Positions 3,096 through 53,661 of a stretch of 64,000 nt of DNA are shown here, one piece after another; position 1 is the stretch's first letter, and each line of letters opens with the position of its first letter. Both the position numbers and the translations under genes were made by a program. The notes under the pieces are model-generated. The model did no database searches and was not told the DNA's origin. It saw only the letters and a list, made by a program, of their open reading frames with translations. This stretch comes from an uncultured Ectothiorhodospiraceae bacterium (GTDB lineage: Bacteria > Pseudomonadota > Gammaproteobacteria > S012-40). The DNA is taken from positions 22,900 through 86,899 of the forward strand of contig CALZHW010000002.1 of NCBI GenBank assembly GCA_945787125.1, written 5' to 3'.

Positions 3096-3442
3096 CTCAC
3101 AATCGGAGTTCAAAATTGCCACCTTCCAGCACCCGTAGCAGCAAAACCTTACCGAGAGACGCTGTGAATACGTCCTTGTAGGCTTAAACCTAGATTAATC
3201 AGTTGAACCACGATTTCTAGCGCAAGTTCTTGAAGCACCTAACGAATCCAAGAATCTGCTAATCACCAATAAGGTGACCACGCAATTCTTGAATTCACTA
3301 TCCACTCCAATATCTTACGCTATAAATTCGCGCCAACTGATTATTCTAGGTTGAACGCAGCATCCCTGCTGCCAACACTCTCGATAAGGCCTTGCCACTA
3401 CGAGCGCTAATTACGAGGAATAGTTTGAACACTGATTGTGAG
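3096..3442. repeat. PAL-1 palindromic MITE-like element, expanded copy of about 347 bp with an extra internal segment
   Basis: The termini ctcacaatcggagttcaaa (left) and tttgaacactgattgtgag (right) are inverted repeats. The internal arms ccgtagcagcaaaaccttaccgagagacg and ttgccactacgagcgct match the other PAL-1 copies. Confidence 0.75.
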
Positions 3443-9382: not shown

Positions 9383-9621
9383 CTCAAGTTTCGGCGTTCA
9401 AATGTTTTTCCCGTAATTAACGCTCGTCGTGGCAAGGCCTTGTCGAGAGTGTTGGCGGCATGCATGCTGCCGGTAAGCCTTATATGATTAATTTTAGTAA
9501 CCAAAAGCTTATGCAGCGGAACTAATTTCAAAGGGATGTATTCACGTCGTTTCTCAGTAAGGTTTTGCCGCTGCGGGTGTTGGAAAGTGCCACTTTTGCA
9601 CCTTTGAACTCCAAATGTGAG
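9383..9621. repeat. PAL-1 palindromic MITE-like element copy
   Basis: It contains ctcaagtttcgg ... cgtcgtggcaaggccttgtcgagagtgttggcggcatgcatgctgcc ... tctcagtaaggttttgccgctgcgg. The arms are reverse complements of each other. It lies between island genes 1 and 2. Confidence 0.8.
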
Positions 9622-24980: not shown

Positions 24981-25000
24981 GGCGAATTGGCTTAGTAATC

Positions 25001-26563: not shown

Positions 26564-27490
<927 letters not shown>

Positions 27491-27703
27491 TTTTCTGCTT
27501 TATTTAGGGTGATTTCTACAAGCTGATGGATTTACTAACAATTTGTCATAGACTCACTATGTCAGATTGAGTAAAATTCACCGATATTATTTAATAAAAG
27601 CGAGCAGACCCGCCTGCATTTCTCACCGAAAAACCAAACAATGAAAGGTGAAAAATGCAGATTGAGTGTGTCTCGCTTTCTGTCTATTTGTCCGGGGGAT
27701 AAT

Positions 27704-28861
27704 TTGCCACAGCAAGCTCTTTTAGCCTTAGAAGACGGTAGTGTTTTTTATGGAGACTCTATCGGGGTAGTTGGCCAAACGATTGGCGAAGTCGTATTTA
27801 ATACGGCCATGACGGGTTATCAGGAAATTCTCACTGACCCATCATACAGTAAACAAATTGTCACCTTAACCTATCCACACATTGGTAATGTCGGGGTTAA
27901 CAATGACGATGAAGAATCAAAAGCTGTTGCGGCTAGTGGTTTGATTATGCGTGATTCTTCATTTATTGCTAGCAGTTGGCGCAGTCAAAAAACGTTGCCG
28001 GAATATCTACAGCATAATAATGTGGTCTGTATTGCGGGTATCGATACCCGTCGTCTGACACGAATTTTAAGAGAAAAAGGCGCACAAAATGGCTGTATTA
28101 TCGCAGCTGATAATCTTTCAGAAGCGCAAGCCAGAACACAAGCAATAGCAGCGGCAAAAGCTTTTCCAGGATTGCAAGGCATGGATCTGGCAAAAGAGGT
28201 TACAACGCAGGAAGCTTATCACTGGAACGAGGGCACGTGGAATTTAAACACGGGTTTTGCAGCAGCTACTCAGCAGGAGAGCGACCAAAAATATCATGTC
28301 GTGGCCTACGATTTTGGGGTGAAGCGTAATATATTACGCTTGCTCGCCGATCGTCATTGCAAATTAACCGTTGTTCCGGCGACTACCTCAGCAAAAAAAG
28401 TTCTGTCGATGAAACCTGATGGCGTCTTTCTTTCCAATGGTCCAGGTGATCCGGAACCGTGTGATTATGCTATTGAAGCAATCAAGCAAATTTTGGCAGC
28501 GAATATTCCAATCTTTGGCATTTGCCTTGGGCATCAACTATTGGCGTTAGCCAGTGGGGCAAAAACACTAAAAATGAAATTCGGCCATCATGGGGCCAAC
28601 CATCCTGTGCAAGATCTGGTAACCGGTGAAGTCTTTATCAGTAGTCAAAATCATGGTTTTGCAGTGGATGAAAGCAGTCTTCCCAGCCATTTAAAAGCCA
28701 CTCATAAATCCTTGTTCGATCAATCATTGCAAGGCATTGAGCGCACGGATAAACCGGCTTTTAGTTTTCAGGGTCACCCTGAAGCCAGCCCTGGTCCGCA
28801 TGAGCTTGAACCTCTGTTTGACAAATTCATCGCCTCAATGAAAAAATTCAAAAAGTATTGA
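27704..28861 (+). CDS. carA: Carbamoyl-phosphate synthase small (glutaminase) subunit
   Basis: It has the catalytic triad region GICLGHQ and a glutamine amidotransferase class I domain. The start is assigned to TTG 27704 ([17 protein letters not shown]) with a GGGGA RBS. The upstream ATG at 27641 would add an atypical 21-aa extension. Confidence 0.85.
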
Positions 28862-28865
28862 AACT

Positions 28866-31800
28866 ATGCCAAAACGTACAGACATAAAGACCATTTTAAT
28901 TATCGGTGCTGGCCCTATTGTCATCGGCCAGGCCTGTGAGTTTGATTACTCAGGTGCACAAGCGTGCAAAGCCTTGAGAGAAGAAGGTTATCGCATCGTT
29001 TTGATTAATTCAAATCCTGCCACCATCATGACCGACCCGGATATGGCAGACAGCACGTATATCGAGCCCATAACCTGGAGCACGGTAGAGAAAATTATTG
29101 AAAAAGAAAAACCTGATGCCTTGTTACCAACCATGGGCGGACAAACAGCACTTAACTGTGCGTTGGATCTTGCACGTGAAGGCGTTTTAGAAAAGCACGG
29201 GGTTGAATTAATTGGTGCATCACAAGACGCTATTGATAAAGCCGAAGACCGTGATCGTTTTCGTCAGGCCATGGAAAAGATTGGCCTGTCTACCCCAACC
29301 GCGGCACTTGCTCATAGCCTGGAAGAAGCCGAACAAGTCCAGGCGCAAATCGGCTATCCCGCAATAATCCGTCCTTCGTTTACCATGGGTGGCAGTGGTG
29401 GTGGCATTGCTTACAACCGTGAAGAATTCATTGAAATATGCACCCGCGGATTGGACTTATCGCCCACCAATGAGTTGCTGATTGAAGAATCTGTATTGGG
29501 TTGGAAAGAATATGAAATGGAAGTGGTGCGTGACCACAAAGACAATTGCATCATCATTTGTTCCATTGAAAACTTTGATCCAATGGGTGTGCATACCGGC
29601 GATTCCATCACTGTCGCACCGGCGCAAACACTTACCGATAAAGAATATCAGATCATGCGTGATGCTTCATTGGCGGTATTACGCGAAATCGGAGTAGATA
29701 CTGGTGGCTCTAATGTGCAATTTGCCATCAATCCAGAGAATGGTTACATGATTGTGATCGAGATGAATCCGCGAGTCTCACGTTCATCAGCACTGGCTTC
29801 TAAAGCGACAGGTTTTCCCATTGCGAAAATTGCGGCCAAATTAGCGGTAGGTTTTACGCTTGACGAATTACAAAACGACATAACCGGTGGTGCAACGCCG
29901 GCGTCATTCGAGCCGACGATTGATTACGTGGTTAGCAAAATACCGCGGTTTACTTTTGAAAAATTTCCGCAAGCGGATGCCACCTTAACCACGCAAATGA
30001 AATCGGTAGGTGAGGTGATGGCGATTGGTCGCACCTTTCAGGAATCGATACAAAAAGCCATTCGTGGCTTGGAAACGGGTAACAATGGCTTTAATGAAAA
30101 AGTCGCGCAGGATGATCCTGATCGCAATGATATTTTACAAAAACAACTCGCCATACCCGGTGCCGACCGCCTGTGGTATATCGCTGACGCGTTCCGTGCG
30201 GGAATGAGCGTGCAGGATATTCATCAATTATGTAAAGTGGATCCCTGGTTTTTAGTGCAAATCGAAGACCTGGTGAAAATTGAAGAAACCCTAAAACAGC
30301 AGTCGTTGGTTGATTTGGATAAAATGGCTTTATTCAAAATCAAACAAAAAGGTTTTTCCGATACACGGCTGGCACAATTGTTGGCGCAATCTGAGAAGGC
30401 TATTCGAGACTATCGCCATTCAATTGGGGTAAAGCCAGTCTATAAACGCGTTGATTCTTGTGCGGCCGAGTTCAGCACCCAAACGGCCTATATGTATTCT
30501 ACCTATGAAGAAGAGTGTGAAGCCGCGCCAAGCAATAGAGAAAAAATCATGGTGTTGGGTGGTGGTCCAAACCGTATAGGTCAAGGGATTGAGTTTGATT
30601 ACTGCTGTGTGCATGCCGCGTTGGCAATGCGTGAAGACGGTTACGAAACCATTATGATCAATTGCAATCCTGAAACGGTTTCAACGGATTATGATACGTC
30701 TGATCGACTCTATTTCGAACCATTGACCCTGGAGGATGTGTTAGAGGTTATTGCCATAGAAAACCCCAAAGGCGTTATTGTGCAATATGGTGGGCAAACC
30801 CCACTAAAACTTGCGCGTGATTTAGAAGCCGCAGGCGCACCCATTATTGGTACCTCACCTGACGCCATTGATCGGGCCGAAAATCGCGAACGTTTCCAGG
30901 AAATGATTGATAAATTGGGTTTGAAGCAACCGCCCAACTGCACTGCACGAAGCCCGCAGGAAGCTGTTACGCTGGCGGATGGTATTGGCTATCCTCTGGT
31001 TGTTCGTCCGTCCTATGTTTTAGGTGGCAGAGCGATGGAAATCGTTCATAATCGTGAAGACTTAGAGCGTTATATGCGTGAAGCTGTTTCCGTATCTAAC
31101 GATTCACCGGTATTACTGGATCATTTTCTGGATGATGCGGTTGAAGTGGATGTAGATGCGATTTGTGATGGTGATGCGGTATTGATTGGCGGCATCATGG
31201 AACATATTGAACAAGCAGGTATCCACTCTGGTGATTCCGCTTGCTCACTGCCCCCGTATACCTTGTCATCTAAAATACAAGACAGGATACGCGAACAAGT
31301 TGGGCAGATGGCCAAAGAGTTGGGTGTGGTTGGTTTGATGAATACCCAATTAGCCGTTAAGGGAGATGATATTTATATCATTGAAGTTAATCCTCGCGCT
31401 TCGCGCACGGTGCCTTTTGTCTCAAAAGCGATAGGCTCACCATTGGCGAAAATTGCTGCCCGTTGCATGGCAGGCAAAAGTTTGAAAGAGCAGGGCGCTG
31501 AGCATGAGCGCATACCGACGTTTTATTTTGTCAAAGAAGCCGTTTTTCCTTTTGTGAAATTCCCTAATGTTGATCCCATCTTGGGTCCTGAGATGAAATC
31601 CACTGGTGAAGTAATGGGTGTGGGCAGTGATTTCGGTTCTGCGTTTGGTCGCGCACAGTTGGGTGCCGGGGTGAATTTACCCGTTACTGGTGTCGCTTTT
31701 CTGAGCGTTAAAGACAGTGATAAGGCCAAAGCAATTAATGTCGCGCGGGATTTGATAAAACTGGGTTATGAAATCTGTAGTACAATTGGTACATCACAAG

Positions 31801-32084
31801 TATTAGCCGATGCTGGTATTAATACTCAAGTTGTTTATAAAGTCACCGAAGGTCGACCACACATCGTTGATAAAATCAAAAACGATGAAATTAGTTTGGT
31901 TATTAATACCACTCATGGCAAACAAGCACTGGCTGATTCGTTTTCTTTGAGACGAGCAGCATTGCAGCACAAGGTAAGTTATACCACAACTATTGCCGGC
32001 GCTGTCGCTACCATACAAGCATTAGAACGATTGGATAATAAAGACGTTCATCGTTTACAAGATCTTCATAAGGAGTTTGATTAA
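28866..32084 (+). CDS. carB: Carbamoyl-phosphate synthase large subunit
   Basis: 1072 aa with duplicated ATP-grasp halves and an MGS-like C-terminal domain. Confidence 0.95.
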
Positions 32085-32560
32085 TGACTAAAGTCCCATT
32101 AACCGTTCACGGCGCTCAAAAATTAAAAGAAGAGCTCAAGGAATTGAAATCTGTCGCTCGTCCTCGGGTTATCCAGGCTATTGCAGATGCAAGAGCCCAT
32201 GGTGACTTGAAGGAGAATGCCGAATATCATGCCGCGAAAGAGCAGCAAGGTTTTATCGAGGGTCGCATCGCAGAAATTGAAGGTAAACTAAGCAATGCAC
32301 AGATCATTGATGTACGTGAAGTTGATGCCGGTGGAAAAATAATTTTCGGTACTACGGTTGAGTTATCCGATGAAACCACGGGCAATGAAGTGACCTATCA
32401 AATCGTTGGTGACGACGAAGCGGATATTAAGGAAGGTAAAATTTCTGTTAGTTCACCCGTTTCTCGCGCTTTAATTGGCAAAGAAGAAGGCGACTTTGTT
32501 GAAGTGCAAACGCCTGGCGGTATTAAAGAATACGAAATTTTAGCGGTACGCTATGAGTAG
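32084..32560 (+). CDS. greA: Transcription elongation factor GreA
   Basis: 158 aa with the N-terminal coiled-coil acidic tip ([13 protein letters not shown]) and a C-terminal FKBP-like domain. Confidence 0.95.
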
Positions 32561-32564
32561 CTAA

Positions 32565-32766
32565 CTCACCATCAGAGTTCAACAATTGAAAATGCAAAAG
32601 TGTCACCTTCTTGCGCCCGTAGCGGCAAACCTTACCGAAACCTTACCGAGAGACGCCGTGTACGTTCTTGTAGGCTTGACGGCAGCAGCCATGCTGCCAA
32701 CACTTTCGCTAAGGCATTGCCACTACGGACGCTGATTATGCAGAGTAGTTGAACTCCGATTGTGAG
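32565..32766. repeat. PAL-1 palindromic MITE-like element copy
   Basis: It reads ctcaccatcagagttcaac ... ccgtagcggcaaaccttaccgagagacgccgtg ... ttgccactacggacgct ... gttgaactccgattgtgag. The arms are inverted. Confidence 0.8.
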
Positions 32767-32851
32767 TAACTAAAATGAGTAACTAAAAAGAAATATATAG
32801 GCGGGTCGAAATAGTTCGAACCGCCTTTATGCTAGAAATGATTTTTATCTA

Positions 32852-33067
32852 TTACTCACAATCGGCGTTCAAACTTGTAAAAATGCCGCCATCCAGCACC
32901 CGTAGCGGTAAGGCCTTAATCGAGTGACGCCGTGATACCTCTCTGTAGATACTCATATCGTTGTCGTTGGTATAGGTAATGTCTGCAAAACCTGATACAT
33001 TAGATCCGTTCGCAAAACTAACCGTTGGTAGTGTCGCTAATAATGAAAAAATTAGACGCTTGTTCAT
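32852..33067 (-). CDS. Small putative secreted protein whose C-terminal third is encoded by a PAL-1 half-copy (uncertain)
   Basis: 71 aa with a signal-like N-terminus MNKRLIFSLLATLPTVSFA. A hairpin with a T-run (32797..32828) lies downstream on the minus strand. Confidence 0.3.
   Translation of the reverse strand: MNKRLIFSLLATLPTVSFANGSNVSGFADITYTNDNDMSIYREVSRRHSIKALPLRVLDGGIFTSLNADCE
32855..32948. repeat. PAL-1 half-copy (left arm only)
   Basis: The sequence is ctcacaatcggcgttcaaac ... cacccgtagcggtaaggccttaatcgagtgacgccgtg. It forms the 3' end of the 71-aa minus-strand ORF. Confidence 0.7.
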
Positions 33068-33456
33068 GGTAATACTCCCTCGTTTCTCTCAAAAAATAAT
33101 TTTTTAGGTAGTTGTTGAGTTGGAAGTTATCGGGATTCCACAGTAAAAGCAAGTGAAATGGTGTTTTATTTGATAATTATTTCAATTAATTCAATAGCTT
33201 ATATCCGAGTGGAATACTCAACTTTCGCCGTGGTTTGTGACCCACGGCTGAGTTAATACATATTCTGCTCGCCGTAAATACGTGCTTAATCTTCCGGAGG
33301 CAGAATAGGTAAATCAATAAATAAGAAGTCGAAATATTTTACAAACTTAACCTAATTACTAACTAAAAATTTTTAAATCATTGTTTATAATAATAATTAT
33401 TCATTCATTAATTCATTTACAACTTGCAAGTGAATGTCAATCAAGTGGGGCTACCA

Positions 33457-33939
33457 ATGAAATTTTTTATGATGACTGTTTTGTTGTTAATAACAGGTGA
33501 CTTATTTGCGTCAAACCTGGGGTTGAAGAAATCTGAGAAAGAGCTTCAATGTATGGCGTTAAATATCTATTTTGAGGCACGTGGTGAGCCTGTTACAGGT
33601 CAGCTTGCGGTGGCGATGGTTACCATGAATCGAGTAAAATCAAAACGCTTCCCCTCAAGTATTTGTGGCGTAGTTTGGCAACGAAAACAATTTAGCTGGA
33701 CACATGATGGCAGAAGCGATCAGCCCACTGATCAAAAAGCCTGGAAGCTAGCTAAAGAAATTGCTGATTTTGCATATTACAAATATGACAAACTAAAAAC
33801 AATGAGCAACGGTGTATTGGATCTGACAAAAGGTGCGTTACATTATTATGCTCCTAAGTTTGCCAATCCATATTGGGCGAAACACAAGCAGGTAACACTG
33901 GAAATCGGTGGACATGTATTCCTTGCGGAGAATTCTTGA
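33457..33939 (+). CDS. Cell wall hydrolase, SleB-like (Hydrolase_2 family)
   Basis: Signal peptide MKFFMMTVLLLITGDLFA. It has the family motifs ALNIYFEARGE and QFSW. The start is placed at ATG 33457. Confidence 0.75.
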   Translation: MKFFMMTVLLLITGDLFASNLGLKKSEKELQCMALNIYFEARGEPVTGQLAVAMVTMNRVKSKRFPSSICGVVWQRKQFSWTHDGRSDQPTDQKAWKLAKEIADFAYYKYDKLKTMSNGVLDLTKGALHYYAPKFANPYWAKHKQVTLEIGGHVFLAENS

Positions 33940-34145
33940 TTTTAATGGCATTTGAATAATTAAGGTTGTTCAAATGCTTTTTTGCTGCCTTAACTGTCTC
34001 TCGATTTATGCCACCAACGCTTGACTTTCATCTTAAATAATTTCCCAATATCGAGTACTCATTACATTCATGCAATTCTAAATACTTCAAACCCCGAGTA
34101 AAATTGCTATATAATTTATCGACAACTAAAATAGGGGTGTAGCCA

Positions 34146-36155
34146 GTGCCTTATCAATCTAGCGAACAAATTGTAAACGCATTTCCGCGATACCCTGAGG
34201 CTGTTGTCCAGGCCAGCGCACATGATCAACAGGGTAGTTTTCAAAAAGCGATAAAACTCAGTGCAATAGTTTTCACTATTGTTCTGCTGCCATTGCTGCT
34301 TTTTACTTTTCTGCGACCTGCTATATATCTCAGTGAGGCCAGTCTGCTCATTGATAAGTCCAGCAAACCTTCAGAAACAAACTTGCAAACATCGCATAAC
34401 CTATCGATAGAAAAAAGCGTGCTGCTATCGCAAGAGTCACGGTTGAGTATCATTGACGGATTAAGACGCAGCCAATTAATTTCCGCTCAGTCCGCTATGG
34501 ACGTCAATCAGTTGTCAGAGATGCTTTCTGTTAACATCAACGGCAATAATTTATTGGAGCTGCAGGTCAAGGGAGAAGAGAAAGACTTATTGTATCCGAT
34601 TATGGAATTATGGATAGGCAACTACGGACAAAGACGTCTGGCAATGAATGAAAATTCTACTGCCAATCTGGACAACGAACTTGGCGCAAGCATTATTGAA
34701 CTAGAGAGCAAGGTTGAACAAAAAAGAGCAGAGCTAGTAACATTTCGTGAACTGAATAATATTGAATCCACCCAACGTGAAGAAAATCAAATTGTAGCTC
34801 GACTTAAAAAAATTACCGAATCCTTAAACATTGCACAAGACGAACGAGTAAACAATGAAGCACAGCTCAGCTCATTGCACGCTTCAATCCAACGTGGAGA
34901 GCCTATTTTATTGCCCGCTGATCAAACTGCATTGGCGCGACTGGGGCAACGTTCGATGGAGTTGCGGGAGCAAATTGCCGATATTGAAAGCCAATATACG
35001 CCGGCATTAGTGGCAATTACACCCAAATTGCAAGCAGTTTACGATAATTATCAAGATATCCAGCGCGATATCAATAATTCTCGGCAAGCAGCACTCGAAC
35101 AGGCACTAACTGAAGCGAAAAATCGTATTGAAAACAGTGTATCGATTATCAATAAACTAAAAAAACAACGTACTGAATTGAAACAAAAAGCATCAGATTT
35201 TAATTCGAGTTTCGTTAAATATACGGCGCTCGAAGAAGAGTTAAATCAACTTAGCGAAATATTACGCCAGTCAAAAACGCAACTTGCTGAAAATGAATCT
35301 CGCAGCAATGCCAGTGATGTTAAAGTTGAAATATTAACTATGCCAAGTCAGCCTGAATCACCAGTCTCTCCTCTGTACACACGAGATACCTTGTTGAGTA
35401 TTGCGGCGGCAAGTCTATTGGGGTTGGTCGTCGGGTTGTTCTATTTCGTATTGATGCGCCCCAGGAGCCCGCTGCTCGTGCCGCATAAACAACAAATATT
35501 TTATCCTGTGGCAGGTGCCGGCATAGTTAGTAACCCTGGTATTGAAGGGTCAACGGTCAATCATCTAAACCATCATCTAAATCATGCAGCGTCAATAAGC
35601 TTACCCCACTTTGCTCAGCGTGAGGTTTCAGAGTTCGAACTTCAGTCGTTATTGGAAGTGAGTGATCCACTTACACAATTATTAATTTATATGATGATCG
35701 CGGGAAATAATCCAGATGAGATGAGCCAATTGACCTGGCACGATATGCTAACTAATGGGGGATTAATACGTCTCCCTGAAGATTTTATATTGCATTGGCC
35801 TGTTGAAAATAAATTAACTCAACTAGTCAGTAAATTATCGAAAAGTGAAGATGAAAGTCATTATGTCTGGTCTGATTCAAAAGCTCATCCAATGGATGTT
35901 AATCAGTTAAACACACTAATTAGCGATGCAGCGCATGATGCAGGTTTAACCGAACCTCAATCATTTAACTTGCAGGTATTACACTCAAGTTATCTAGCAT
36001 TTCTAGCGCGTCAAGGTTTGCGGATATCATCGCTAAGTAAATTAACCGATCAAATCACAAATGAAAGCAAAGAAACATTAAGCCGCCTCTCACCGCCCGG
36101 CAAGAAAAAGTCTTTTGCAGAAATTAATTTATTGCATCCGATTATTGAGTGTTAA
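34146..36155 (+). CDS. Polysaccharide co-polymerase (Wzz/chain-length-determinant)-like membrane protein with an extra C-terminal domain of about 220 aa
   Basis: The topology is TM1 (IVFTIVLLPLLLFTFL), a long coiled-coil periplasmic region, then TM2 (LLSIAAASLLGLVVGLFYFVLM), as in PCP proteins. The C-terminal extension has no Walker A. It ends with LHSSYLAFLARQGLRISSLSKL, which is reminiscent of a tyrosine-recombinase helix. Confidence 0.55.
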   Translation: MPYQSSEQIVNAFPRYPEAVVQASAHDQQGSFQKAIKLSAIVFTIVLLPLLLFTFLRPAIYLSEASLLIDKSSKPSETNLQTSHNLSIEKSVLLSQESRLSIIDGLRRSQLISAQSAMDVNQLSEMLSVNINGNNLLELQVKGEEKDLLYPIMELWIGNYGQRRLAMNENSTANLDNELGASIIELESKVEQKRAELVTFRELNNIESTQREENQIVARLKKITESLNIAQDERVNNEAQLSSLHASIQRGEPILLPADQTALARLGQRSMELREQIADIESQYTPALVAITPKLQAVYDNYQDIQRDINNSRQAALEQALTEAKNRIENSVSIINKLKKQRTELKQKASDFNSSFVKYTALEEELNQLSEILRQSKTQLAENESRSNASDVKVEILTMPSQPESPVSPLYTRDTLLSIAAASLLGLVVGLFYFVLMRPRSPLLVPHKQQIFYPVAGAGIVSNPGIEGSTVNHLNHHLNHAASISLPHFAQREVSEFELQSLLEVSDPLTQLLIYMMIAGNNPDEMSQLTWHDMLTNGGLIRLPEDFILHWPVENKLTQLVSKLSKSEDESHYVWSDSKAHPMDVNQLNTLISDAAHDAGLTEPQSFNLQVLHSSYLAFLARQGLRISSLSKLTDQITNESKETLSRLSPPGKKKSFAEINLLHPIIEC

Positions 36156-36299
36156 GTTCAGTATCCTGCAAGGGCGCATTTGATGCACCATAAATCTTTG
36201 GGCTGTCCGGGATTTTATTCTGCTTATCTATCAGTTGGGAATGTTGGGCTTCGCAAATCGCACTCAGCCCAATCGGTAATCTTTAACTGAATGACTTCG

Positions 36300-39200
36300 T
36301 TAATTTGAAAAGACCCTGGCTCTACTGAATTTTAACAATACTGCCAAACTTAATAATAACAACCATGATAATGAAGCGCTTGCACTCGTGCCATTCGAAA
36401 CAATTACGTTATTATTGTCATTGGATCCATTCGTATCAAGACTATCTTCGGTAGTTTGATCTGGCGTGTCTGGTAAATCGATTTGAATAGCAGCTTCTGA
36501 TGCGGCTATCACAGCCACTTTTAAAGCGGCAGTATCTGTCCCACCTTGACCATCATCAATGTGATAATCAATCAGATCTTCACCAATAAAGTTGTCAGGT
36601 GGTGTATATCGAACAATACCTTTGTTGTTCACGGATACTGTACCGCCTTCTCGGCTATTACTAGAGTCTATCGACACTTGTAAGTTGTCACGATTGGCAT
36701 CGTTATCGTTTGATAAAACATTGATGCTGATGGCCATGTCGTTCGGTGTTATCGCTGTATCATCCGTAGCAATCGGCGCTTCATTTACTCGCTCTGCAAA
36801 GCTGATGCTTACTGTTGCAGGCTGTGACTCCACAAGACCATCAGTGACAGTAAAATCAAAACTTACATTTCCACTTGCGCTTGCATTTGTATCAGTAGTG
36901 TAGATAAGGCTGCCTGTTGCTGGGTTAAACTCTATAATTTGACCTTCTTCAGGTTCATTTTTTATTTTGTAAAATAGCACGTCATCATCTGCATCACTTG
37001 CAACTAATAATATTTGTATGGATCGCTCTATGTCTAGTGATAATTCCATAGAACTTGCTTCGGGAGCGCTATTTGACGTGGTTGGTAATATTGTAATGTT
37101 AGCAGTACCTTCGAGTGATCTTGCCTCTCCTTCATCGAGCTTTGTTTGCAGGTTTACAACATTAAAACCAAAACTATCTGTATTATCTAAGCCTTCTTTA
37201 GCATGATATAAAAGTTCACCTGAATGCTCGTCCAACCAAAGTATTTCACCTTTCTCGGCAGATAAGTCTGGCTGCAGACTAAATGAGAAATCGCCAATAG
37301 CGTCACTTTGTAAATCAATATTTGCGATTCTTCCAGCTTCAACAATCACTGCGGGGTTTGTTAAGGCAATAAGATTGCTGGTTTTAAAATAAATAATCAC
37401 AGAGGCTGGTCGCGAGAGCAGCCCACCGGTGTCTTCTACTGCATAGGTAAAACCATCAGACCCGCTCGCATCAGCGTTGGCGATATAAGAAAAACTCCCA
37501 TCAGGACTAATTGTAATATCTCCCATCACAGGTTCAGTCCCAATGATATATCGCAATTCAGTTTGCTCTGGGTCATAGGTGAGTTTCGAGTGAGTTGAGG
37601 TGGATAAACCGCCACTCAAATCAGAAATTAAAGTTTCGCCTGGTAAAACAAGAAATGATTGAGAATAAGCAGTCGGTGGTAGGTTTTGTTCAGTAATTTC
37701 TACCATGACAATTGCCGTTTCAGAATGAATTGTTTGATTTGTTGTGGGATCGATAACACTGACGTTATAGCTAAACCCAGTTTCGCCTATAAAGCCTGAT
37801 ACGGGAGTAAAATATATAAAATCAATCATACTCGTATTGTTTGCCTGGCTGCCTTTGCCTACATAGACTGAAACAGCATTTTGATCCAACGGTTGTACAG
37901 ACGTTATATTAAATGTCGCAGCGCCACGTTGTAATGGATCATTATCATTCGCGAGTAAATGTGGAAGCGGTATAATGATCTCTTCATAAAGTGCTTTTAG
38001 TATGCGATCATTTCGCGCGATGGGTAAGTTATTTTTATTGCTGGAAACCCCTTTAGTATTAGCCGCTGTTTGAAATGCACCTGGATCACAGGCATCAACA
38101 TCTCGACCAAATCCACGTTGGTCGTTTGCGTTGCAATCGATACCTGAACCTATCGCGTTGCCGGATAATAATGCGAGAGTGGGTGGGAATGTGACATCGG
38201 GTAATTCGTTACCCGGTATACCACTATTGTTTGTTAGTGTTCCAAGGATGGCGCCACTTGTAGTAGCGTTTGTATTCGGCTTGGCATTCGGCTTAGCGCT
38301 CGTGGTTGACAATAAACACGTGCCGCTATCATCAACATTACCACCAATATTGATAATATAATTATTAAAGCTCGTGGTGCCATTGCAGGCATCGGTGCTT
38401 GAAGCGTCTCCTACAATAGTATTCAGTAAAGAAATTCGCCAAGGCAAGTTTGTTTGGGGATCAGTATTTGCTTCCGTGACATCCAAATATATTTCACTAC
38501 CACCAGTGGCGTCGGTAGAGGTGGGTGTACCGACACCCCCCACGGAGGAACTGGGATCCGCAGAGTTGCCAGTTATGGTAGTATTTATAATATCTATAAT
38601 TCTGCCAGAATGATAAATACCGCCGCCTTTATTCGGCAATCGCGGCAGCCCATTATCCAGGGCCTGGTTATTAGTAAGAGTCACATTTGACAATTGCAGT
38701 GCGGCCAGGCCCAGATTATAAATTCCACCTCCGGCGAATTCAGCTTGATTATTATCGATAGTTGAGTTGCTTACAATCATACCGTAATCAGTAAGTTGTC
38801 GCGTCGTAAAATTCCAGTTGCCGGAAACGTTAAATATCGCTCCTCCCATAAAAGCTTGATTACCTGTGATTTGGCTATTTTCTATAAAAACTTGTTCGTC
38901 TCTGAGTTGTGCAATTATTGTTTGACTAAAAATAGCACCGCCAATTTGAGATCTATTATTCGCAATAATGGATCGACGTATCGTTAGCTTACCACCCATG
39001 TTGGTAATGGCCCCGCCCATACCACCCCCGATAAATTGACTGTTATTATTGAACTGTCCATTCTGTCCACCCGTTCTTCCAATAAAAAAAGACGAGGAAT
39101 TATCGCGAATCACACTATCTTCTATAGTTAGTACGCCGGCATTCATTATTCCAGAGCCGCTGATTTCATCATAGTTGGAGTATATTTCAACATGACGAAG

Positions 39201-39836
39201 TATGACGTTGGGGCGCGTCGTATCGCTATTGGAAAATTCGTTACCTGGATCAAACGTGGTGTTGATTTCAGGCGTTGTGGAGCCTAAACCCGTCGGTTGA
39301 AAAGCATTACCATTGTTTACAATACATTTGATACAAATTCCACCACCACCTGCTCGGGTATCTGTCCCACGGCCACCGGTTATAGACAGATAATTCAGTT
39401 CAATATTGATTACCTTGCTTTCTGAAAGTATGTGCATCACCCGATCGGAAGCACCACTCGCATCAATCACTACAGCATTTCTGTCTGATGCATTGCCATT
39501 TATAGTCAGATGGTCAGTAATATCCAGGTCTCCGCTGGCAGACAAATTTTCTTGGGTTCCAGGAATAGTGAGTCGATACACGCCGTCGTTGAGATTGATG
39601 ATGTCAGGTAATTCTTCACCATTTAGTATGGTATTAGCATACGCATTAGCTTCCATAATGGCAGCACGTAGGGAGCAAGGGGATCCCGATAAAGCAGTTG
39701 CACAAACGCCGTTACCAGGTGCGGAATCGACCGCATCGAGTGTTGTATTGACGGTGAAAGTTGTTGCGACGGCCTGGAAAGAAAAAAGCACGCAGCACGA
39801 AAGAAGTAAAACGACCTTGTTTTTGCTAGTCATCAT
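36300..39836 (-). CDS. Giant secreted CSLREA-domain / parallel beta-helix / cadherin-like (VCBS-type) repeat protein
   Basis: 1178 aa. Signal peptide MMTSKNKVVLLLSCCVLFSFQAVA. The N-terminal CSLREA-type motif is GSPCSLRAAIMEANA. The middle holds many beta-helix repeats (GGGIYNLG, NNQA). The distal part holds cadherin-like repeats (DDTAITPNDMAISINVLSNDND...YTPPDNFIGEDLIDYHIDDGQGGTD). The C-terminus is a hydrophobic-basic tail. Confidence 0.8.
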   Translation of the reverse strand: MMTSKNKVVLLLSCCVLFSFQAVATTFTVNTTLDAVDSAPGNGVCATALSGSPCSLRAAIMEANAYANTILNGEELPDIINLNDGVYRLTIPGTQENLSASGDLDITDHLTINGNASDRNAVVIDASGASDRVMHILSESKVINIELNYLSITGGRGTDTRAGGGGICIKCIVNNGNAFQPTGLGSTTPEINTTFDPGNEFSNSDTTRPNVILRHVEIYSNYDEISGSGIMNAGVLTIEDSVIRDNSSSFFIGRTGGQNGQFNNNSQFIGGGMGGAITNMGGKLTIRRSIIANNRSQIGGAIFSQTIIAQLRDEQVFIENSQITGNQAFMGGAIFNVSGNWNFTTRQLTDYGMIVSNSTIDNNQAEFAGGGIYNLGLAALQLSNVTLTNNQALDNGLPRLPNKGGGIYHSGRIIDIINTTITGNSADPSSSVGGVGTPTSTDATGGSEIYLDVTEANTDPQTNLPWRISLLNTIVGDASSTDACNGTTSFNNYIINIGGNVDDSGTCLLSTTSAKPNAKPNTNATTSGAILGTLTNNSGIPGNELPDVTFPPTLALLSGNAIGSGIDCNANDQRGFGRDVDACDPGAFQTAANTKGVSSNKNNLPIARNDRILKALYEEIIIPLPHLLANDNDPLQRGAATFNITSVQPLDQNAVSVYVGKGSQANNTSMIDFIYFTPVSGFIGETGFSYNVSVIDPTTNQTIHSETAIVMVEITEQNLPPTAYSQSFLVLPGETLISDLSGGLSTSTHSKLTYDPEQTELRYIIGTEPVMGDITISPDGSFSYIANADASGSDGFTYAVEDTGGLLSRPASVIIYFKTSNLIALTNPAVIVEAGRIANIDLQSDAIGDFSFSLQPDLSAEKGEILWLDEHSGELLYHAKEGLDNTDSFGFNVVNLQTKLDEGEARSLEGTANITILPTTSNSAPEASSMELSLDIERSIQILLVASDADDDVLFYKIKNEPEEGQIIEFNPATGSLIYTTDTNASASGNVSFDFTVTDGLVESQPATVSISFAERVNEAPIATDDTAITPNDMAISINVLSNDNDANRDNLQVSIDSSNSREGGTVSVNNKGIVRYTPPDNFIGEDLIDYHIDDGQGGTDTAALKVAVIAASEAAIQIDLPDTPDQTTEDSLDTNGSNDNNNVIVSNGTSASASLSWLLLLSLAVLLKFSRARVFSN

Positions 39837-40126
39837 AAGATCTGCGTCCTTTATTAAGTATTCATAAGGACTTATATCGTTTACTTAGGTAATTACTTGA
39901 TGGTTATCTGCTTATTTTGCGTGTATTTTCTACAGTTAAATAGGCTTCGTTCTAAGCTTGTATTGGTTGTAGCTGATTATATTATTTTGAAATTACAATA
40001 GCTTGTGGGTGCAAATTCAACAATATTCACATGTGCTGCAATGGACGCCAGCAGGAAACATTGTTGCAACGGTTAAACTTCGATTGGGAGTTAGAATGTA
40101 ACTAAAGACAATGATTTAAGTGCTTG

Positions 40127-45049: not shown

Positions 45050-45246
45050 TTACTTTTTGAATAAACGTATATCCGTGTAAGGCTTATCCCTCCTCTTCAA
45101 TTAAAAAGGAGGGGAGGGTTTGCGATATTATCTCGGGAATTGTAGTGGTCAAGTAAATCTACACATCTTGCATCCTAGTTTAGACTCCTCTTCGACTAAA
45201 TGGTATTTGCACTTAGGGGTGTCCTGCTTTAGTACGTTGTTCTCGA

Positions 45247-45418
45247 CAATTGCTCCTCGATAACTGCTCCTGCGTTATTCTACCTACGGGCGTCCTGCCC
45301 TAGTGCGTTATTCTACCTAAGGGTGTAATGGTCAAGTGCATTGTTCTACCTTTATCCATCCATGGCTTCGTACCTTCGCCTATCCATGGGCTGGAATTTC
45401 CTGCATTCATGCAGTCCT
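45247..45418. repeat. R2 composite intergenic repeat copy (minisatellite-like, tandem units of about 33 bp)
   Basis: It reads caattgctcctcgataactgctcctgcgttattctacctacgggcgtcctgccctagtgcgttattctacct...atccatccatgg...atccatgggct...ctgcattcatgcag. Degenerate upstream units extend the array to about 45130. Confidence 0.75.
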
Positions 45419-45533
45419 CACTCAGTAAGTCCAAATAGAAACTAAATCTGTGTGCAACTTATGTGTCAAAAATTCTAAACTCTTGTTATAGGTAAATCTG
45501 ACTGCCTATAGGTTTTAATCTTTGTTACGGACT

Positions 45534-48685: not shown

Positions 48686-48703
48686 TCCTCTAGTAAATAT
48701 TAC

Positions 48704-48757
48704 TTAAGTTTCGGGGTGCAAACTTTTTCTCGTAATCAGCGATCGTCGTGGCAAAGC
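48704..48757. repeat. PAL-1 partial copy (left arm fragment)
   Basis: The sequence is cttaagtttcggggtgcaaactttttctcgtaatcagcgatcgtcgtggcaaagcc. Confidence 0.6.
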
Positions 48758-48760
48758 CAT

Positions 48761-48790
48761 TAAAAAGGCGCTAATTAAAGCGCCTCTTTA
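48761..48790 (-). terminator. Rho-independent terminator of slyD
   Basis: On the minus strand it reads aaagaggcgctttaattagcgcctttttaa, with stem ggcgct/agcgcc followed by a T-run. Confidence 0.7.
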
Positions 48791-50736: not shown

Positions 50737-53397
50737 TTGAAATCTATGGAAACATTTGCCAAAGAAATACAGCCTGTAAACATTGAAGATGAAATGCGTC
50801 AGTCCTACATGGAATATGCCATGCGGGTTATTGTTGGACGTGCGTTACCTGATGTAAGAGATGGATTGAAACCGGTGCACCGCCGGGTTTTATATGCTAT
50901 GCATGAGTTGGGCAATGACTTCAACAAGCCCTACAAAAAATCTGCCCGTGTGGTTGGTGACGTTATCGGTAAATATCACCCGCATGGCGATACCGCTGTT
51001 TATGACGCGATCGTTCGTATGGCGCAGCCGTTTTCAATGCGTTATGTGTTGATTGACGGGCAAGGAAATTTTGGTTCAGTGGACGGCGATTCGCCCGCTG
51101 CAATGCGTTATACCGAAGTGCGGATGGACAAGATTGCACACGAATTGCTCGCTGATCTTGATAAAGATACCGTAGATTTTACGCTCAATTACGATGAGTC
51201 TGAGCGCGAGCCGTCAGTTTTACCGGCGAAAACACCCAACTTATTAATCAATGGCTCATCAGGCATCGCTGTTGGTATTGCGACCAATATTCCGCCGCAT
51301 AATATAACTGAAGTGGTCAGCGCCTGTTTAGCGATGATCGACAATCCTGAGATTGATCTTGCCGGTTTGATGGAACACATTCCAGGGCCTGATTTCCCCA
51401 CCGCTGGTATTATTAATGGTGCGCGAGGAATTTTAGAAGCTTACAAAACGGGTAAGGGCCGCATCTATGTGCGCTCCCGTTCTCATCTTGAAACAGAAGC
51501 CAACGGCAAAGAAAAAATCATTGTCACCGAATTGCCTTACCAGGTTAACAAAGCGCGTCTGCTGGAAAAAATCGCTGAGCTGGTTAAAGATAAAAAGATC
51601 GATGGCATCACTGAATTACGCGATGAGTCAGATAAAGATGGTATGCGCATGGTGATTGAATTGCGCCGGGGTGAATCTTACGATGTCATGCTGAATAATT
51701 TGTATCAATTGACCCAGATGCAAAACGTATTTGGCATAAACTTGGTGGCGTTGTCCGGTGGTCAACCTATTTTGATGAATTTGAAATCCATCCTGGAAGC
51801 TTTCATTCGTCACCGTCGCGAAGTTGTTACTCGACGTACTATTTTTGAAATCCGCAAAGCGCGCGAGCGTACTCACGTGCTGGAAGGCCTGGCAGTTGCT
51901 CTGGCGAATATAGATCCTATTATTGCCACCATCAAAGCCTCGCCAACTGCTGCAGATGCCAAGGTTGCTTTAATGGCACAGGGTTGGGCGCCCGGCATAG
52001 TGATGGATATGCTGGAGCGTGCCGGTGATGATTTATCCCGTCCGGAGGACTTGAGTGCTAATTACGGCCTGATCGACGGTGGATATCGTTTATCTCCGGC
52101 GCAAGCCCAGGCGATTCTCGATATGCGCTTGAATCGCTTGACCGGCCTGGAGAAAGAGAAAATTCATGCAGAATATAAAGAACTGCTAGTAATAATCGAA
52201 GATCTTTTGGATATTTTGCTAAACCCTGAGCGCTTAATGCAAGTCATTCGTGACGAACTCAGCACCATCAAGGAAACTTATGGTGATGAGCGTAGAACTG
52301 AAATAATTACCAATCATCAAGATTTATGTCTGGAAGACCTGATCGAAGATGAACCGATGGTGGTCACACTTTCACACGAAGGTTATGTCAAAACCCAGCC
52401 ACTTGATGCCTACGAATCTCAGCGTCGTGGTGGTCGAGGCAAAGCTGCCGCCAGCACTAAAAGTGAAGATTTCATCGATAAAATGTTTACCGCGAATGCG
52501 CATGACACCATGTTATGTTTTTCCAGTCGCGGCAAGATCTATTGGATGAAAGTGTATCAAGTGCCGATTGCATCGCGCACAGCGCGCGGCAAACCGATTG
52601 TAAATTTGTTGCCGCTGGAAGAGGGCGAGCGCATTAATGCTGTCTTGCCAATCCGTGAATACACGGATGATAACTTTGTCTTTATGGCAACCTCAAACGG
52701 TACTGTCAAGAAAACCCCATTGAAAGAATTTTCTCGACCGCGAGCCAATGGCATCATCGCGATAGATCTTCGTGAAGATGATCAATTAGTCGGTGTGGAT
52801 ATTACAAATGGCAAAAGCGATATATTACTTTTCTCCAGTGCCGGTAAAGTGACACGTTTTAATGAGTCCACTGTGCGTTCGGTTGGCAGAACAGCCGCCG
52901 GTGTTCGAGGTATTAGACTGAATGAATCGCAACGAGTCATTGCGTTGATCATCTCTGACGAAGGCACCGTATTAACCGCGACTGAAAACGGTTACGGTAA
53001 ACGTACTGAATTGAGCGAATATCCGACCAAAGGTCGTGGCGGACAAGGTGTAATTTCTATTCAAACCGCTGGTCGTAACGGTGAGGTGGTTGGTGCTGTA
53101 TTGGTTCGTCCGGAAGATGACATCATGTTAATTAGCAATGCAGGGACTCTGGTGCGAACCAGTGTTGATCAAATTTCGATAGTAGGCAGAAATACCCAAG
53201 GGGTACGATTAATCAACCTGGGCGGCGACGAAAAATTACAAAGCATTGACCGCATCTGTGAAATTGACGGTGACGAAAAAGAAGATAATGGCGCAGAGTC
53301 AGAGTCAGCTGACGGCAGTGATAACGGCGATATCGACACCAATACCGACACTGGCACAAATGACAATGCTGATAACAACGATAATACGGAAACGTAA
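50737..53397 (+). CDS. gyrA: DNA gyrase subunit A
   Basis: It has the active-site Tyr region AAMRYTE, a QRDR-like segment ([17 protein letters not shown]) and GyrA-box beta-pinwheel repeats. The C-terminus is a long acidic low-complexity tail. Confidence 0.95.
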
Positions 53398-53407
53398 CTG
53401 TTAAATA

Positions 53408-53598
53408 CTCAAGTTTCGGAGTTTAAACTATTTCCGGTAATCAGCGCTCGTAGCGGCAAAACCTTATCGAGAGTGTTGGCAGCATGGATGCTGCCGTCAA
53501 GCCTACATGGACGTATTCACGGCGTCTCTCGGTAAGGTTTTGCCGCTACGGATGCTGGAAAGTGTCACTTTGGCAACGTTGAATTCCGAAACTTGAGT
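53408..53598. repeat. PAL-1 palindromic MITE-like element, best-preserved copy (about 190 bp near-perfect palindrome)
   Basis: The left arm (ctcaagtttcggagtt..cgtagcggcaaaaccttatcgagagtgttggcagcatgg) and the right arm (ccatgga..tctctcggtaaggttttgccgctacgg..aattccgaaacttgag) are reverse complements of each other. Confidence 0.85.
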
Positions 53599-53661
53599 TA
53601 AATAGTGGGTGTGTGAAAGATTCCTGGATTGAGACACCCAATTCTAACCTGGAGTGATTTA

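What the first reader, a model, noticed from the sequence alone, without database searches (positions are those of the whole stretch)
53408..53598. PAL-1: a roughly 190 bp near-perfect palindromic MITE-like element, at least six copies in 64 kb, always at gene 3' ends
The copy between gyrA and serC is an almost exact palindrome. Its left arm (ctcaagtttcggagtt...cgtagcggcaaaaccttatcgagagtg...) is the reverse complement of its right arm. Related copies lie at 3096..3442, 9383..9621, 32565..32766, 32855..32948 (half) and 48704..48757 (fragment). All are intergenic and sit immediately after stop codons (protease/folE2, island gene 1, greA, slyD, gyrA). In structure it resembles the ERIC/IRU elements of enterobacteria and the Correia elements of Neisseria. 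The RNA would fold into a hairpin of about 95 bp, a probable RNase III substrate and transcript terminator or stabiliser. This family and this density look uncatalogued for this lineage.
Basis: seen in the sequence. Interest (0 to 1): 0.6.

Follow-up and report, generated by a model that had tools for sequence, protein, structure and literature searches.

The report
YPAL-like miniature mobile hairpin element
A roughly 190-bp non-coding mobile element has inserted repeatedly just after genes in an uncultured gammaproteobacterium; it is a new, distant relative of the Yersinia YPAL repeats, so it is a known kind of element in a new host.

Summary
The repeat family is real. nhmmer and blastn confirm all six reported copies. 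They add a relic at 40033-40090 and two copies outside the window, in sibling assemblies of the same organism.

"Near-perfect palindrome" is overstated. Only 68 of 104 aligned arm columns of the gyrA-serC copy are complementary: a 20-nt terminal inverted repeat plus a 32-nt inner stem. The predicted fold is still very stable (-100 kcal/mol, z = -11.9).

It behaves as a miniature transposable element:
- Termini CTCA...TGAG are flanked by 6-7 bp AT-rich duplications (TTAAATA, TTATAA, TTATTA, TTAGTTA/TTAGCTA).
- Three relatives have only 20-31 bp between gyrA and serC, so their sites are empty.

It is not unrelated to known families. Its central ~60 nt is homologous to the Yersinia YPAL/RU-2 element (nhmmer E 2e-9 to 3e-4). 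It also gives sub-threshold hits to Rfam Ysr224, which I show is YPAL-derived. The arms and termini are lineage-specific. The anatomy also matches Coxiella QMITE2, whose sequence I could not obtain.

It is not an intrinsic terminator, because no U-tract follows the hairpin. Mismatches in the stems are almost all G·U-compatible on one strand, which suggests the hairpin acts in single-stranded form. The likeliest role is a hairpin in the 3' untranslated or intercistronic mRNA.

Verdict: a new member of a known kind, of modest interest.

The parts
53408..53597 (+). PAL-1 copy A, full length (190 bp, CTCAAG...CTTGAG), between the gyrA stop (53395-53397) and the serC ATG (53662). The forward orientation of the family is defined by this copy.
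   Evidence: nhmmer 211 bits, E = 4e-64.
53401..53407 (.). Left target-site duplication of copy A, TTAAATA. The right copy is at 53598-53604.
   Evidence: Read. A perfect 7/7 match abuts both termini. The chance of this is about 7e-5 to 2e-4.
53598..53604 (.). Right target-site duplication of copy A, TTAAATA.
53407..53426 (.). Left terminal inverted repeat of A. It pairs with 53579-53598 (20 nt, 90% complementary).
   Evidence: I2.
53442..53473 (.). Left strand of the inner stem, containing CGTAGCGGCAAAACCTTA. It pairs with 53526-53557 (32 nt, 88%).
   Evidence: (I1).
53470..53529 (+). Central module homologous to Yersinia YPAL/RU-2. It holds the small hairpin GGCAGCATGGATGCTGCC (53478-53495) followed by AAGCCTACATGGACGTATTCACGGCGTCT.
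   Evidence: Ysr224, 32.6 bits; alignment score 50 against shuffles 16.8 +/- 2.3; E = 2e-9 to 3e-4 against real YPAL copies; 3 compensatory pairs in the hairpin.
9383..9621 (+). Copy B, full length, with an unrelated 53-nt insert at 9481-9533 after AAGCCT. It has a degenerate right terminus and no recognisable duplication.
3096..3442 (-). Copy C, full length, reverse orientation, between the convergent aspartyl-protease gene (stop at 3061) and folE2 (stop at 3484). A nested element interrupts it.
3189..3350 (.). A different ~162-bp palindromic miniature element nested in the centre of copy C. Its 17-nt terminal repeats are CCTAGATTAATCAGTTG / CAACTGATTATTCTAGG. It is flanked by TTAAA / TTGAA.
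   Evidence: 71% identical to its own reverse complement; -56 kcal/mol, z = -9.2.
32565..32766 (-). Copy D, full length, reverse orientation, starting 4 nt after the greA stop. The flanking duplication is TAGCTAA (32558-32564, which includes the stop codon TAG) and TAACTAA (32767-32773).
   Evidence: 183 bits; Ysr224, 24.4 bits.
32855..32948 (-). Copy E, a right-arm half cut off near the central CTAC. It is fused to a truncated ORF with a signal peptide (32852-33067, minus strand).
   Evidence: (E = 8e-16).
48703..48758 (+). Copy F, a left-arm fragment. It abuts a hairpin that reads as a terminator (48762-48790) downstream of slyD.
   Evidence: (E = 2e-11).
40033..40090 (+). Copy G, a degenerate right-end relic 37 nt past the rmuC stop, at a break in synteny with relatives.
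   Evidence: (E = 0.018). This call is weak.

Best explanation
PAL-1 is a lineage-specific family of non-autonomous miniature insertion sequences (MITEs) of the YPAL/RU-2 type.

Anatomy. A full element is about 190 bp. It has ~20-nt terminal inverted repeats (CTCA[A/C]...TGAG) and lineage-specific arms that form a long, imperfect hairpin. Its ~60-nt centre is homologous to the centre of Yersinia YPAL elements.

Shown here:
- The element is dispersed at unrelated loci.
- Insertion duplicates 6-7 bp of AT-rich target (TTA..TA).
- It is absent from the orthologous sites of the nearest relatives.
- It decays into half copies, deletion derivatives and relics.
- It can itself be a target for other insertions.

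Inferred:
- An enzyme encoded elsewhere in the genome, not identified here, moves it in trans.
- The AT-rich, stop-codon-like target steers it to the first few nucleotides after coding regions.
- There it is transcribed by read-through into a stable hairpin in the 3' untranslated or intercistronic mRNA.
- That hairpin probably modulates mRNA decay or processing, as reported for YPAL, rather than terminating transcription.
For: Repeat family:
- Seven copies in the window and two outside it.
- Full copies are 77-87% identical to one another.

Target duplications abutting CTCA...TGAG:
- A: TTAAATA/TTAAATA, perfect.
- L012: TTATAA/TTATAA, perfect.
- L014: TTATTA/TTATTA, perfect.
- D: TAGCTAA/TAACTAA, 6 of 7.
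- The chance of a 7/7 match is about 1e-4.

Empty sites:
- Relatives L001, L004 and L006 (SerC 81-83% identical) have 20-31 bp between gyrA and serC, against 264 bp here.
- About 80 kb of their DNA holds no copy.

Derivatives:
- The L014 copy is deleted internally but keeps both termini.
- There are also half copies E and F.

Homology to YPAL:
- The PAL-1 profile finds the YPAL copy in each of four Yersinia or YPAL-bearing loci. It hits the same model positions (64-123) on the same strand, with E = 2e-9, 1.6e-7, 1.6e-7 and 3e-4.
- The alignment score of copy A against the published RU-2 sequence is 50, against 16.8 +/- 2.3 for shuffles (maximum 31).
- A blastn of the 67-nt centre against 72,556 plasmids gives E <= 0.01 only for Yersinia plasmids.
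- Copies A and D hit Rfam Ysr224 in the same element-relative orientation. YPAL copies score 101-134 bits on that model.
- The small central hairpin keeps pairing through 3 double changes between PAL-1 and YPAL.

Single-strand hairpin:
- In all five full copies the forward strand folds 14-27 kcal/mol better than the reverse strand.
- Transition mismatches inside the helices are G·U-compatible on the forward strand 29 times and A·C 3 times.
- The three full copies that lie between co-directional genes (A, B, L012) are all in the forward orientation.

Published YPAL properties (PMC2229807, citing De Gregorio 2006): variable duplications, targets near dyad symmetry, cotranscription with upstream genes, and a possible effect on transcript stability.
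Against: - No transposase was found. Pfam scans of 30 window ORFs show no DDE or Y1 transposase, and the rest of the genome could not be read.
- Copy B has no recognisable duplication, and copy C has only a weak one.
- Homology to YPAL covers only the centre. The arms and termini do not align, and the Ysr224 scores (32.6 and 24.4 bits) are far below the gathering score of 70.
- The centre is damaged in the L012 copy and interrupted in B and C, so it is not needed for a copy to persist.
- The G·U asymmetry is largely shared by descent from one master copy. It amounts to few independent events.
- Orientation relative to transcription is ambiguous for C and D, and antisense for fragments F and G.
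- No expression data exist.
Confidence: 0.75

Rival explanations
1. REPIN-like element moved by a RAYT. In this reading the element is a pair of inverted GTAG-tagged REP sequences, moved as single-stranded DNA by a REP-associated tyrosine (HUH/Y1) transposase. The outer inverted repeats would be secondary.
For: - GTAG occurs three times: in each inner-stem strand (CGTAGCGG / CCGCTACGG) and, on the reverse strand, 7 nt before the small central hairpin.
- Strand-specific pairing fits a mechanism that works on single-stranded DNA.
- By anatomy the element resembles QMITE2, which was described as a GTAG REP plus terminal repeats (PMC5896051).
- A second repeat family in the window is built of small hairpins with the same CATCCATG loop.
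Against: - Four copies carry 6-7 bp target duplications. IS200/IS605-type Y1 transposition, and REPINs as described, do not make these (established knowledge).
- The arm GTAGs lie inside the long stem, not at the unpaired foot of a short hairpin. The central GTAG is 7 nt from its hairpin, whereas Di Nocera's families have it adjacent or 2 nt away (PMC3733652).
- GTAG is replaced by GTCG in copies B and F.
- Pfam found no Y1 transposase in the window.
Confidence: 0.12
2. A family of functional structured RNA genes or cis-regulatory RNAs. Here the copies would be kept for an RNA function, like the YPAL-derived sRNA Ysr224 or the QMITE-derived CbsR sRNAs, and not merely tolerated as insertions.
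For: - The G·U excess on one strand.
- Very stable folds.
- Sub-threshold matches to Ysr224, and for copy A to TwoAYGGAY at 36.3 bits against a gathering score of 43.
- The terminal repeat carries an outward-facing TTGAAC. Together with flanking AT-rich DNA it gives promoter-like sites at B (TTGAAC-16-TATAAT, 10 of 12) and D (9 of 12).
Against: - Copies tolerate a 162-bp nested insertion, a 53-nt insert, an internal deletion and truncation.
- The AYGGAY loops are present only in copy A, and YPAL copies do not hit TwoAYGGAY.
- Copies occur in both orientations relative to neighbouring genes.
- Promoter-like sites are no more frequent than in shuffled sequence.
- RNAalifold's covariation term within the family is about zero (-0.06 kcal/mol).
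Confidence: 0.08
3. Intrinsic transcription terminators, duplicated or convergently evolved at gene ends.
For: A long GC-containing hairpin lies just after stop codons.
Against: - No terminator-like site (stem plus T-run) was found at any of the four full copies.
- Separate short GC hairpins followed by T-rich sequence lie next to D (32800-32830) and F (48762-48790), as read.
- The gyrA-serC copy sits where relatives have a 20-31 bp spacer. A strong terminator there would cut off serC and the genes downstream of it.
- 77-87% identity across 190 bp, together with the target duplications, indicates common descent by transposition.
Confidence: 0.03

Closest known systems
YPAL / RU-2 (Yersinia palindromic sequences; De Gregorio et al. 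2006, J Bacteriol; Delihas 2007, PMC2759123 and PMC2229807). Rfam Ysr224 (RF02770) is derived from it.
   Same: - A homologous central ~60 nt: a small hairpin with a (T/A)GGA loop, followed by AGCCTACAWGGAYGTATTYACGGCGTCT.
- The same layout: a long outer hairpin enclosing that centre.
- Similar size (168 against 190 bp).
- Target duplications of variable length.
- Insertion just after stop codons and next to dyad symmetries.
- A continuous ORF-like frame across the element.
   Different: - The arms and termini do not align. YPAL ends in GAGGTTAWTGACAAA, whereas PAL-1 ends in CTCA(A/C)..CGGAGTTCAAAC.
- PAL-1 has contiguous 20-nt terminal inverted repeats, whereas the YPAL repeats are described as internal.
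- Duplications seen here are 6-7 bp against 3-26 bp for YPAL.
- The host is an uncultured gammaproteobacterium with 43% G+C, not an enterobacterium.
- Ysr224 scores (24-33 bits) are well below the gathering score of 70.
QMITE2 of Coxiella burnetii (Wachter et al. 2018, PMC5896051)
   Same: - Size 150-190 bp.
- Terminal inverted repeats of 17-31 bp.
- Direct repeats of 7-13 bp that differ between copies.
- A GTAG-containing palindromic core.
- Location in 3' untranslated and intergenic regions.
- Full-size and truncated versions.
- A centre that attracts other insertions: IS1111 in Coxiella, a nested miniature element and a 53-nt insert here.
   Different: - Sequence relatedness could not be tested, because no QMITE2 sequence was obtainable.
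- No IS110/IS1111 element was seen in the window.
   Same: Small non-coding elements with inverted repeats in intergenic DNA. They are cotranscribed into hairpins that affect mRNA processing.
   Different: - No sequence similarity: no Rfam hit, and no blastn hit to plasmids other than YPAL-bearing Yersinia.
- Those families duplicate TA and have their own termini (PMC2229807, Table 1). PAL-1 duplicates 6-7 bp.
REP/REPIN elements with RAYT transposases
   Same: GTAG motifs, a hairpin-forming pair of inverted sequences, and strand-specific pairing.
   Different: PAL-1 has target duplications and long terminal repeats. Its GTAG motifs are not at the foot of a short hairpin. No RAYT gene was seen in the window.

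Membership tests
YPAL / RU-2 | Sequence similarity to the YPAL consensus | tested here: inconclusive
   The central ~60 nt matches significantly. nhmmer gives E = 2e-9 to 3e-4 on four loci, and the alignment score is z of about 14 against shuffles. The arms and termini do not align. Scores on the YPAL-derived Rfam model Ysr224 are 32.6 and 24.4 bits against a gathering score of 70. This points to a distant relative or a shared module, not a member at family level.
YPAL / RU-2 | An element of about 170 bp that folds into one long hairpin | tested here: met
   190 bp. RNA fold -100 kcal/mol, z = -11.9. DNA fold -56.9 kcal/mol, z = -9.7.
YPAL / RU-2 | Target-site duplications, with filled and empty sites between relatives | tested here: met
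   Duplications of 6-7 bp in four copies. The gyrA-serC site is empty in three relatives.
YPAL / RU-2 | Insertion just downstream of stop codons, next to terminator-like dyads | tested here: met
   A starts 10 nt after the gyrA stop and D starts 4 nt after the greA stop. C lies between two convergent stops. F abuts a terminator-like hairpin, and the L012 copy follows a hairpin after prfC. Copy B is an exception.
YPAL / RU-2 | Cotranscription with the upstream gene and higher transcript levels | not testable with these tools
   This needs RNA data.
QMITE2 (Coxiella) | Anatomy: 150-190 bp, terminal repeats of ~17-31 bp, variable direct repeats of 7-13 bp, a GTAG palindromic core, location in 3' untranslated or intergenic DNA | tested here: met
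   190 bp, 20-nt terminal repeat, 6-7 bp duplications, GTAG in the core, compared with PMC5896051.
QMITE2 (Coxiella) | Sequence similarity to CbsR16/QMITE2 | not testable with these tools
   The paper's supplements hold no sequence. A scan for IS1111 in genome contigs found nothing. Plasmid QpH1 carries no related sequence.
REP/REPIN with RAYT | GTAG at the unpaired foot of a short hairpin (stem of 5-13 bp) | tested here: not met
   The arm GTAGs are paired inside the 32-nt stem. The central GTAG (reverse strand) is 7 nt from its hairpin. GTAG is GTCG in copies B and F.
REP/REPIN with RAYT | No target duplication, and an associated Y1 (RAYT) gene | tested here: not met
   Duplications are present. 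None of the 30 window ORFs scanned hits a Y1 transposase.
Intrinsic terminator | A GC-rich stem-loop followed by a U-tract | tested here: not met
   No terminator-like sites at copies A, B, C or D.
TwoAYGGAY RNA (RF01731) | Score at or above the gathering score, and two AYGGAY loops conserved | tested here: not met
   36.3 bits against 43, and in copy A only. The loops are not AYGGAY in B, C or D. YPAL copies do not hit this model.
ERIC / Correia | Family consensus sequence and TA target duplication | tested here: not met
   No similarity in the Rfam or blastn searches. Duplications are 6-7 bp, not TA.

The most novel reading that the evidence does not exclude
The ~60-nt centre shared by PAL-1 and Yersinia YPAL, and possibly Coxiella QMITE2, may mark a superfamily of miniature elements that spans orders of Gammaproteobacteria and has not been recognised as such. 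In this reading the arms and termini turn over freely, while one module stays conserved: a small hairpin with a WGGA loop plus AGCCTACAWGGAYGTATTYACGGCGTC. That module would be the recognition site of the still-unknown mobilising enzyme, or a functional RNA or single-stranded-DNA motif. The strand-specific G·U pairing would then reflect selection on a single-stranded intermediate.
Probability: 0.3. Interest if true: 0.55.

Novelty: new member of a known kind. Interest (0 to 1): 0.3.

Why it matters
Practically, the family marks gene 3' ends and operon junctions in an uncultured gammaproteobacterium. It probably breaks assemblies too: a sibling contig ends about 160 bp after copy E. It may also uncouple the mRNA levels of neighbouring genes such as gyrA and serC.

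More generally, the enzyme that moves YPAL-type elements has never been identified. A conserved centre shared between distant hosts gives a concrete sequence to test for binding or cleavage. It also gives a search key for finding the autonomous partner by co-occurrence across genomes.

Tried and rejected
1. Assumed at first that the host was Coxiella burnetii and the element QMITE2. SerC homologues show an uncultured gammaproteobacterium instead.
2. Exact look-ups of the window's SerC gave nothing.
3. Degenerate-pattern scans found nothing: genome contigs with CGTAGYRGYAADRCCTTAYCGAGAG, and metagenome contigs with two patterns that together cover all window copies. The family is therefore rare, or its host is absent from those collections.
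4. Tried to fetch C. burnetii DNA with an IS1111 PCR-primer sequence recalled from memory. Plasmid QpH1 holds no related sequence.
5. The QMITE2 paper's supplements hold no sequences. The original YPAL paper is not in the library.
6. A word-indexed protein search with the left-arm reading frame gave nothing. The exhaustive search did find one ORF translated across a copy, P0213, which led to L012.
7. The TwoAYGGAY and mir-3688 matches were rejected. They reflect the generic long hairpin and are specific to copy A.
8. Considered E, F and G as halves of one element split by a large insertion. Their orientations do not fit.
9. Considered a post-insertion mutational strand bias as the cause of the G·U excess. 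This was rejected because copies in both genomic orientations show the excess on the same element strand.

Full report
**1. The observation**

The sequence at 53408-53597 is as described. Its arms carry two complementary blocks:
- a 20-nt terminal repeat at 53407-53426 / 53579-53598, 90% complementary;
- a 32-nt inner stem at 53442-53473 / 53526-53557, 88% complementary.

The rest of the arms does not pair. A global alignment of the left arm with the reverse complement of the right arm gives 68 identical positions in 104 columns. "Near-perfect palindrome" is therefore overstated.

The fold is nevertheless exceptional:
- as RNA, -100.2 kcal/mol against -53.3 +/- 3.9 for shuffles, z = -11.9;
- as DNA, -56.9 kcal/mol, z = -9.7.

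All five other reported copies are real (blastn, alignment, nhmmer profile):

| Copy | Coordinates | Orientation | Notes |
|---|---|---|---|
| C | 3096-3442 | reverse | interrupted by a nested element |
| B | 9383-9621 | forward | interrupted by a 53-nt insert |
| D | 32565-32766 | reverse | full length |
| E | 32855-32948 | reverse | right-arm half |
| F | 48703-48758 | forward | left-arm fragment |

The profile adds a weak relic, G, at 40033-40090 (E = 0.018). Full copies are 77-87% identical to one another. An 18-mer from the core occurs 7 times at up to 3 mismatches, against 0.04 expected.

**2. The host and copies outside the window**

SerC homologues place the window in an uncultured gammaproteobacterium. 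The best non-self hit is 83% identical. Named hits at 77-78% are metagenome-assembled Gammaproteobacteria, Thiotrichales, Sulfuriflexus and Thiohalobacter.

Sibling assemblies of the same organism exist:
- L013 (GCA_945787255.1) is 99.97% identical to window 22084-33110.
- L014 (GCA_945787865.1) is 100% identical to window 1-10373, apart from a 98-bp indel.

L014 extends past the window start. There it holds an internally deleted PAL-1 copy that keeps both termini.

An exhaustive protein search with the left-arm reading frame found one ORF translated across a copy. It lies on L012 (GCA_945786995.1, 42.7% G+C). L012 carries a full 196-bp copy between prfC and tatD (nhmmer E = 1e-54). Whether L012 is the same species is inferred from its base composition and its accession series. 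It has not been shown.

**3. Evidence that it is a mobile insertion**

With the termini taken as CTCA...TGAG, four copies carry direct duplications that abut both ends:
- A: TTAAATA / TTAAATA.
- L012: TTATAA / TTATAA.
- L014: TTATTA / TTATTA.
- D: TAGCTAA / TAACTAA, whose left copy contains the greA stop codon.

A perfect 7-mer match at a fixed position has a chance of about 1e-4. Copy C shows only a weak duplication and copy B none.

Three relatives (L001, L004, L006) keep the gene order mtnA-gyrA-serC. They have 20-31 bp between gyrA and serC, against 264 bp in the window. The profile finds nothing in about 80 kb of their DNA. The site downstream of slyD in L001 also lacks the element.

**4. 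Relationship to known families**

Rfam has no match at gathering level. At relaxed thresholds, copies A and D both hit Ysr224 (RF02770) in the same element-relative orientation, at 32.6 and 24.4 bits against a gathering score of 70.

The Ysr224 alignment showed real sequence identity, which led me to the Yersinia YPAL/RU-2 element. Its 168-nt sequence is printed in Delihas 2007 (PMC2759123).

Several tests support homology of the centre:
- Copy A aligns to RU-2 with a score of 50, against 16.8 +/- 2.3 for shuffles (maximum 31). All four full copies match in the same orientation.
- I fetched real YPAL copies through their spurious ORFs. The PAL-1 profile finds each one at model positions 64-123, with E = 2e-9, 1.6e-7, 1.6e-7 and 3e-4.
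- Those YPAL copies score 101-134 bits on Ysr224, so that Rfam family is YPAL-derived.
- A blastn of the 67-nt centre against 72,556 plasmids gives E <= 0.01 only for Yersinia plasmids.

The joint alignment shows where the similarity lies. The conserved block is a small hairpin with a (T/A)GGA loop, followed by AGCCTACAWGGAYGTATTYACGGCGTCT. The arms and termini are unrelated. The hairpin keeps its pairing through three double changes between the two families. That amounts to one evolutionary split, so it is modest evidence.

Published YPAL properties match PAL-1 (PMC2229807): variable duplications, targets next to dyad symmetry, recent mobility, cotranscription with upstream genes, and a possible effect on transcript stability.

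By anatomy, PAL-1 also matches Coxiella QMITE2 (PMC5896051). I could not obtain a QMITE2 sequence to test homology.

**5. How it probably works**

*Terminator.* No copy has a terminator-like stem followed by a T-run. Short GC hairpins followed by T-rich sequence lie beside D and F (read). The 20-31 bp gyrA-serC spacer in relatives implies cotranscription. A strong terminator at copy A would therefore be polar on serC. The terminator reading is rejected.

*Strand asymmetry.* In all five full copies the forward strand folds 14-27 kcal/mol better than its complement. An alignment of the arms at the DNA level does not favour either strand in advance. In it, transition mismatches inside the helices are G·U-compatible on the forward strand 29 times and A·C 3 times. 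Many of these are shared by descent. The bias holds for copies in both genomic orientations, although GC skew is positive across almost all of the window. It is therefore a property of the element and not of local mutation pressure.

*Orientation.* The three full copies that lie between co-directional genes (A, B, L012) are all sense-oriented. C and D are ambiguous, and fragments F and G are antisense.

Together, these points favour a hairpin that acts in single-stranded form. The likeliest form is read-through mRNA, acting as a stability or processing determinant as reported for YPAL. This step is inferred, not shown.

*Mobilising enzyme.* It is unknown. Pfam scans of 30 window ORFs show no transposase. 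The duplications argue for staggered-cut (DDE-type) integration and against a RAYT/IS200-type mechanism, despite the GTAG motifs.

**6. Verdict**

This is a real, lineage-specific MITE family. It is a new member of a known kind: the YPAL type, with an anatomy like QMITE2. The one point of wider interest is the centre conserved across orders.

Noticed in passing
window 3189-3350: A second, unrelated palindromic miniature element of about 162 bp is nested in the centre of PAL-1 copy C. It has 17-nt terminal repeats, is flanked by TTAAA/TTGAA, and is 71% identical to its own reverse complement. Its RNA fold is -56 kcal/mol (z = -9.2). It occurs once in the window.
   Followed up: partly
window 25674-25929; partial copies at 8080-8158 (-) and 45200-45423: A third repeat family. 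The full copy is 256 bp with 27-nt terminal inverted repeats (93%). It is built of small hairpins of the form NNNCATCCATGNNN, such as GCCCATCCATGGGC and CTGCATCCATGCAG. The loop is the same as in the PAL-1 central hairpin read on the reverse strand. CATCCATG occurs 9 times in the window, against 2.6 +/- 1.5 expected.
   Followed up: partly
window 32852-33067 (-): A 71-aa ORF starts with a signal peptide (MNKRLIFSLLATLPTVSFA). After about 40 codons it runs into half-copy E. This looks like a gene truncated by a rearrangement at the element's centre.
   Followed up: no
window 9481-9533: Copy B carries a 53-nt unrelated insert directly after AAGCCT in the centre. This is 6 nt from the insertion point of the nested element in copy C, and half-copy E is truncated at the same region. 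The centre seems to be a hot spot for insertion or breakage.
   Followed up: partly
window 9604-9631 (+) and 32749-32776 (+): The element's terminal repeat carries an outward-facing TTGAAC. With the AT-rich flank it forms promoter-like sites: TTGAAC-16-TATAAT (10 of 12), 44 nt upstream of the ORF at 9675, and TTGAAC-16-TAAAAT (9 of 12). The number of such sites is not above the shuffle expectation.
   Followed up: no
window 7907-8004: A 98-bp segment present in the window is absent from the otherwise 100% identical sibling contig L014 (GCA_945787865.1). It lies next to the partial copy of the third repeat family.
   Followed up: no
window about 33000-40100: This region is not syntenic with relatives L001 and L006, where rmuC is followed by a squalene/phytoene synthase gene. 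It holds a cell-wall hydrolase, a 669-aa protein with a sub-threshold Phage_integrase match (20.4 bits against 27.1), and a 1178-aa cadherin/Big_9 protein. PAL-1 fragments E and G lie at its two edges.
   Followed up: no
window 32762-32787: The right end of copy D plus its target duplication is repeated in tandem: GAGTAACTAAAA twice.
   Followed up: no
L013 (GCA_945787255.1), contig end equivalent to window 33110: The sibling contig ends about 160 bp after half-copy E, which suggests that these repeats break short-read assemblies.
   Followed up: no
L008 2190-2341 (GCA_902168945.1): This locus carries a YPAL variant. Its centre, AGCCTACAAGGACGTATTCACGGCGTCT, is identical to the PAL-1 consensus over 28 nt, which is closer than the Y. 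pestis YPAL. The organism name was not shown.
   Followed up: no
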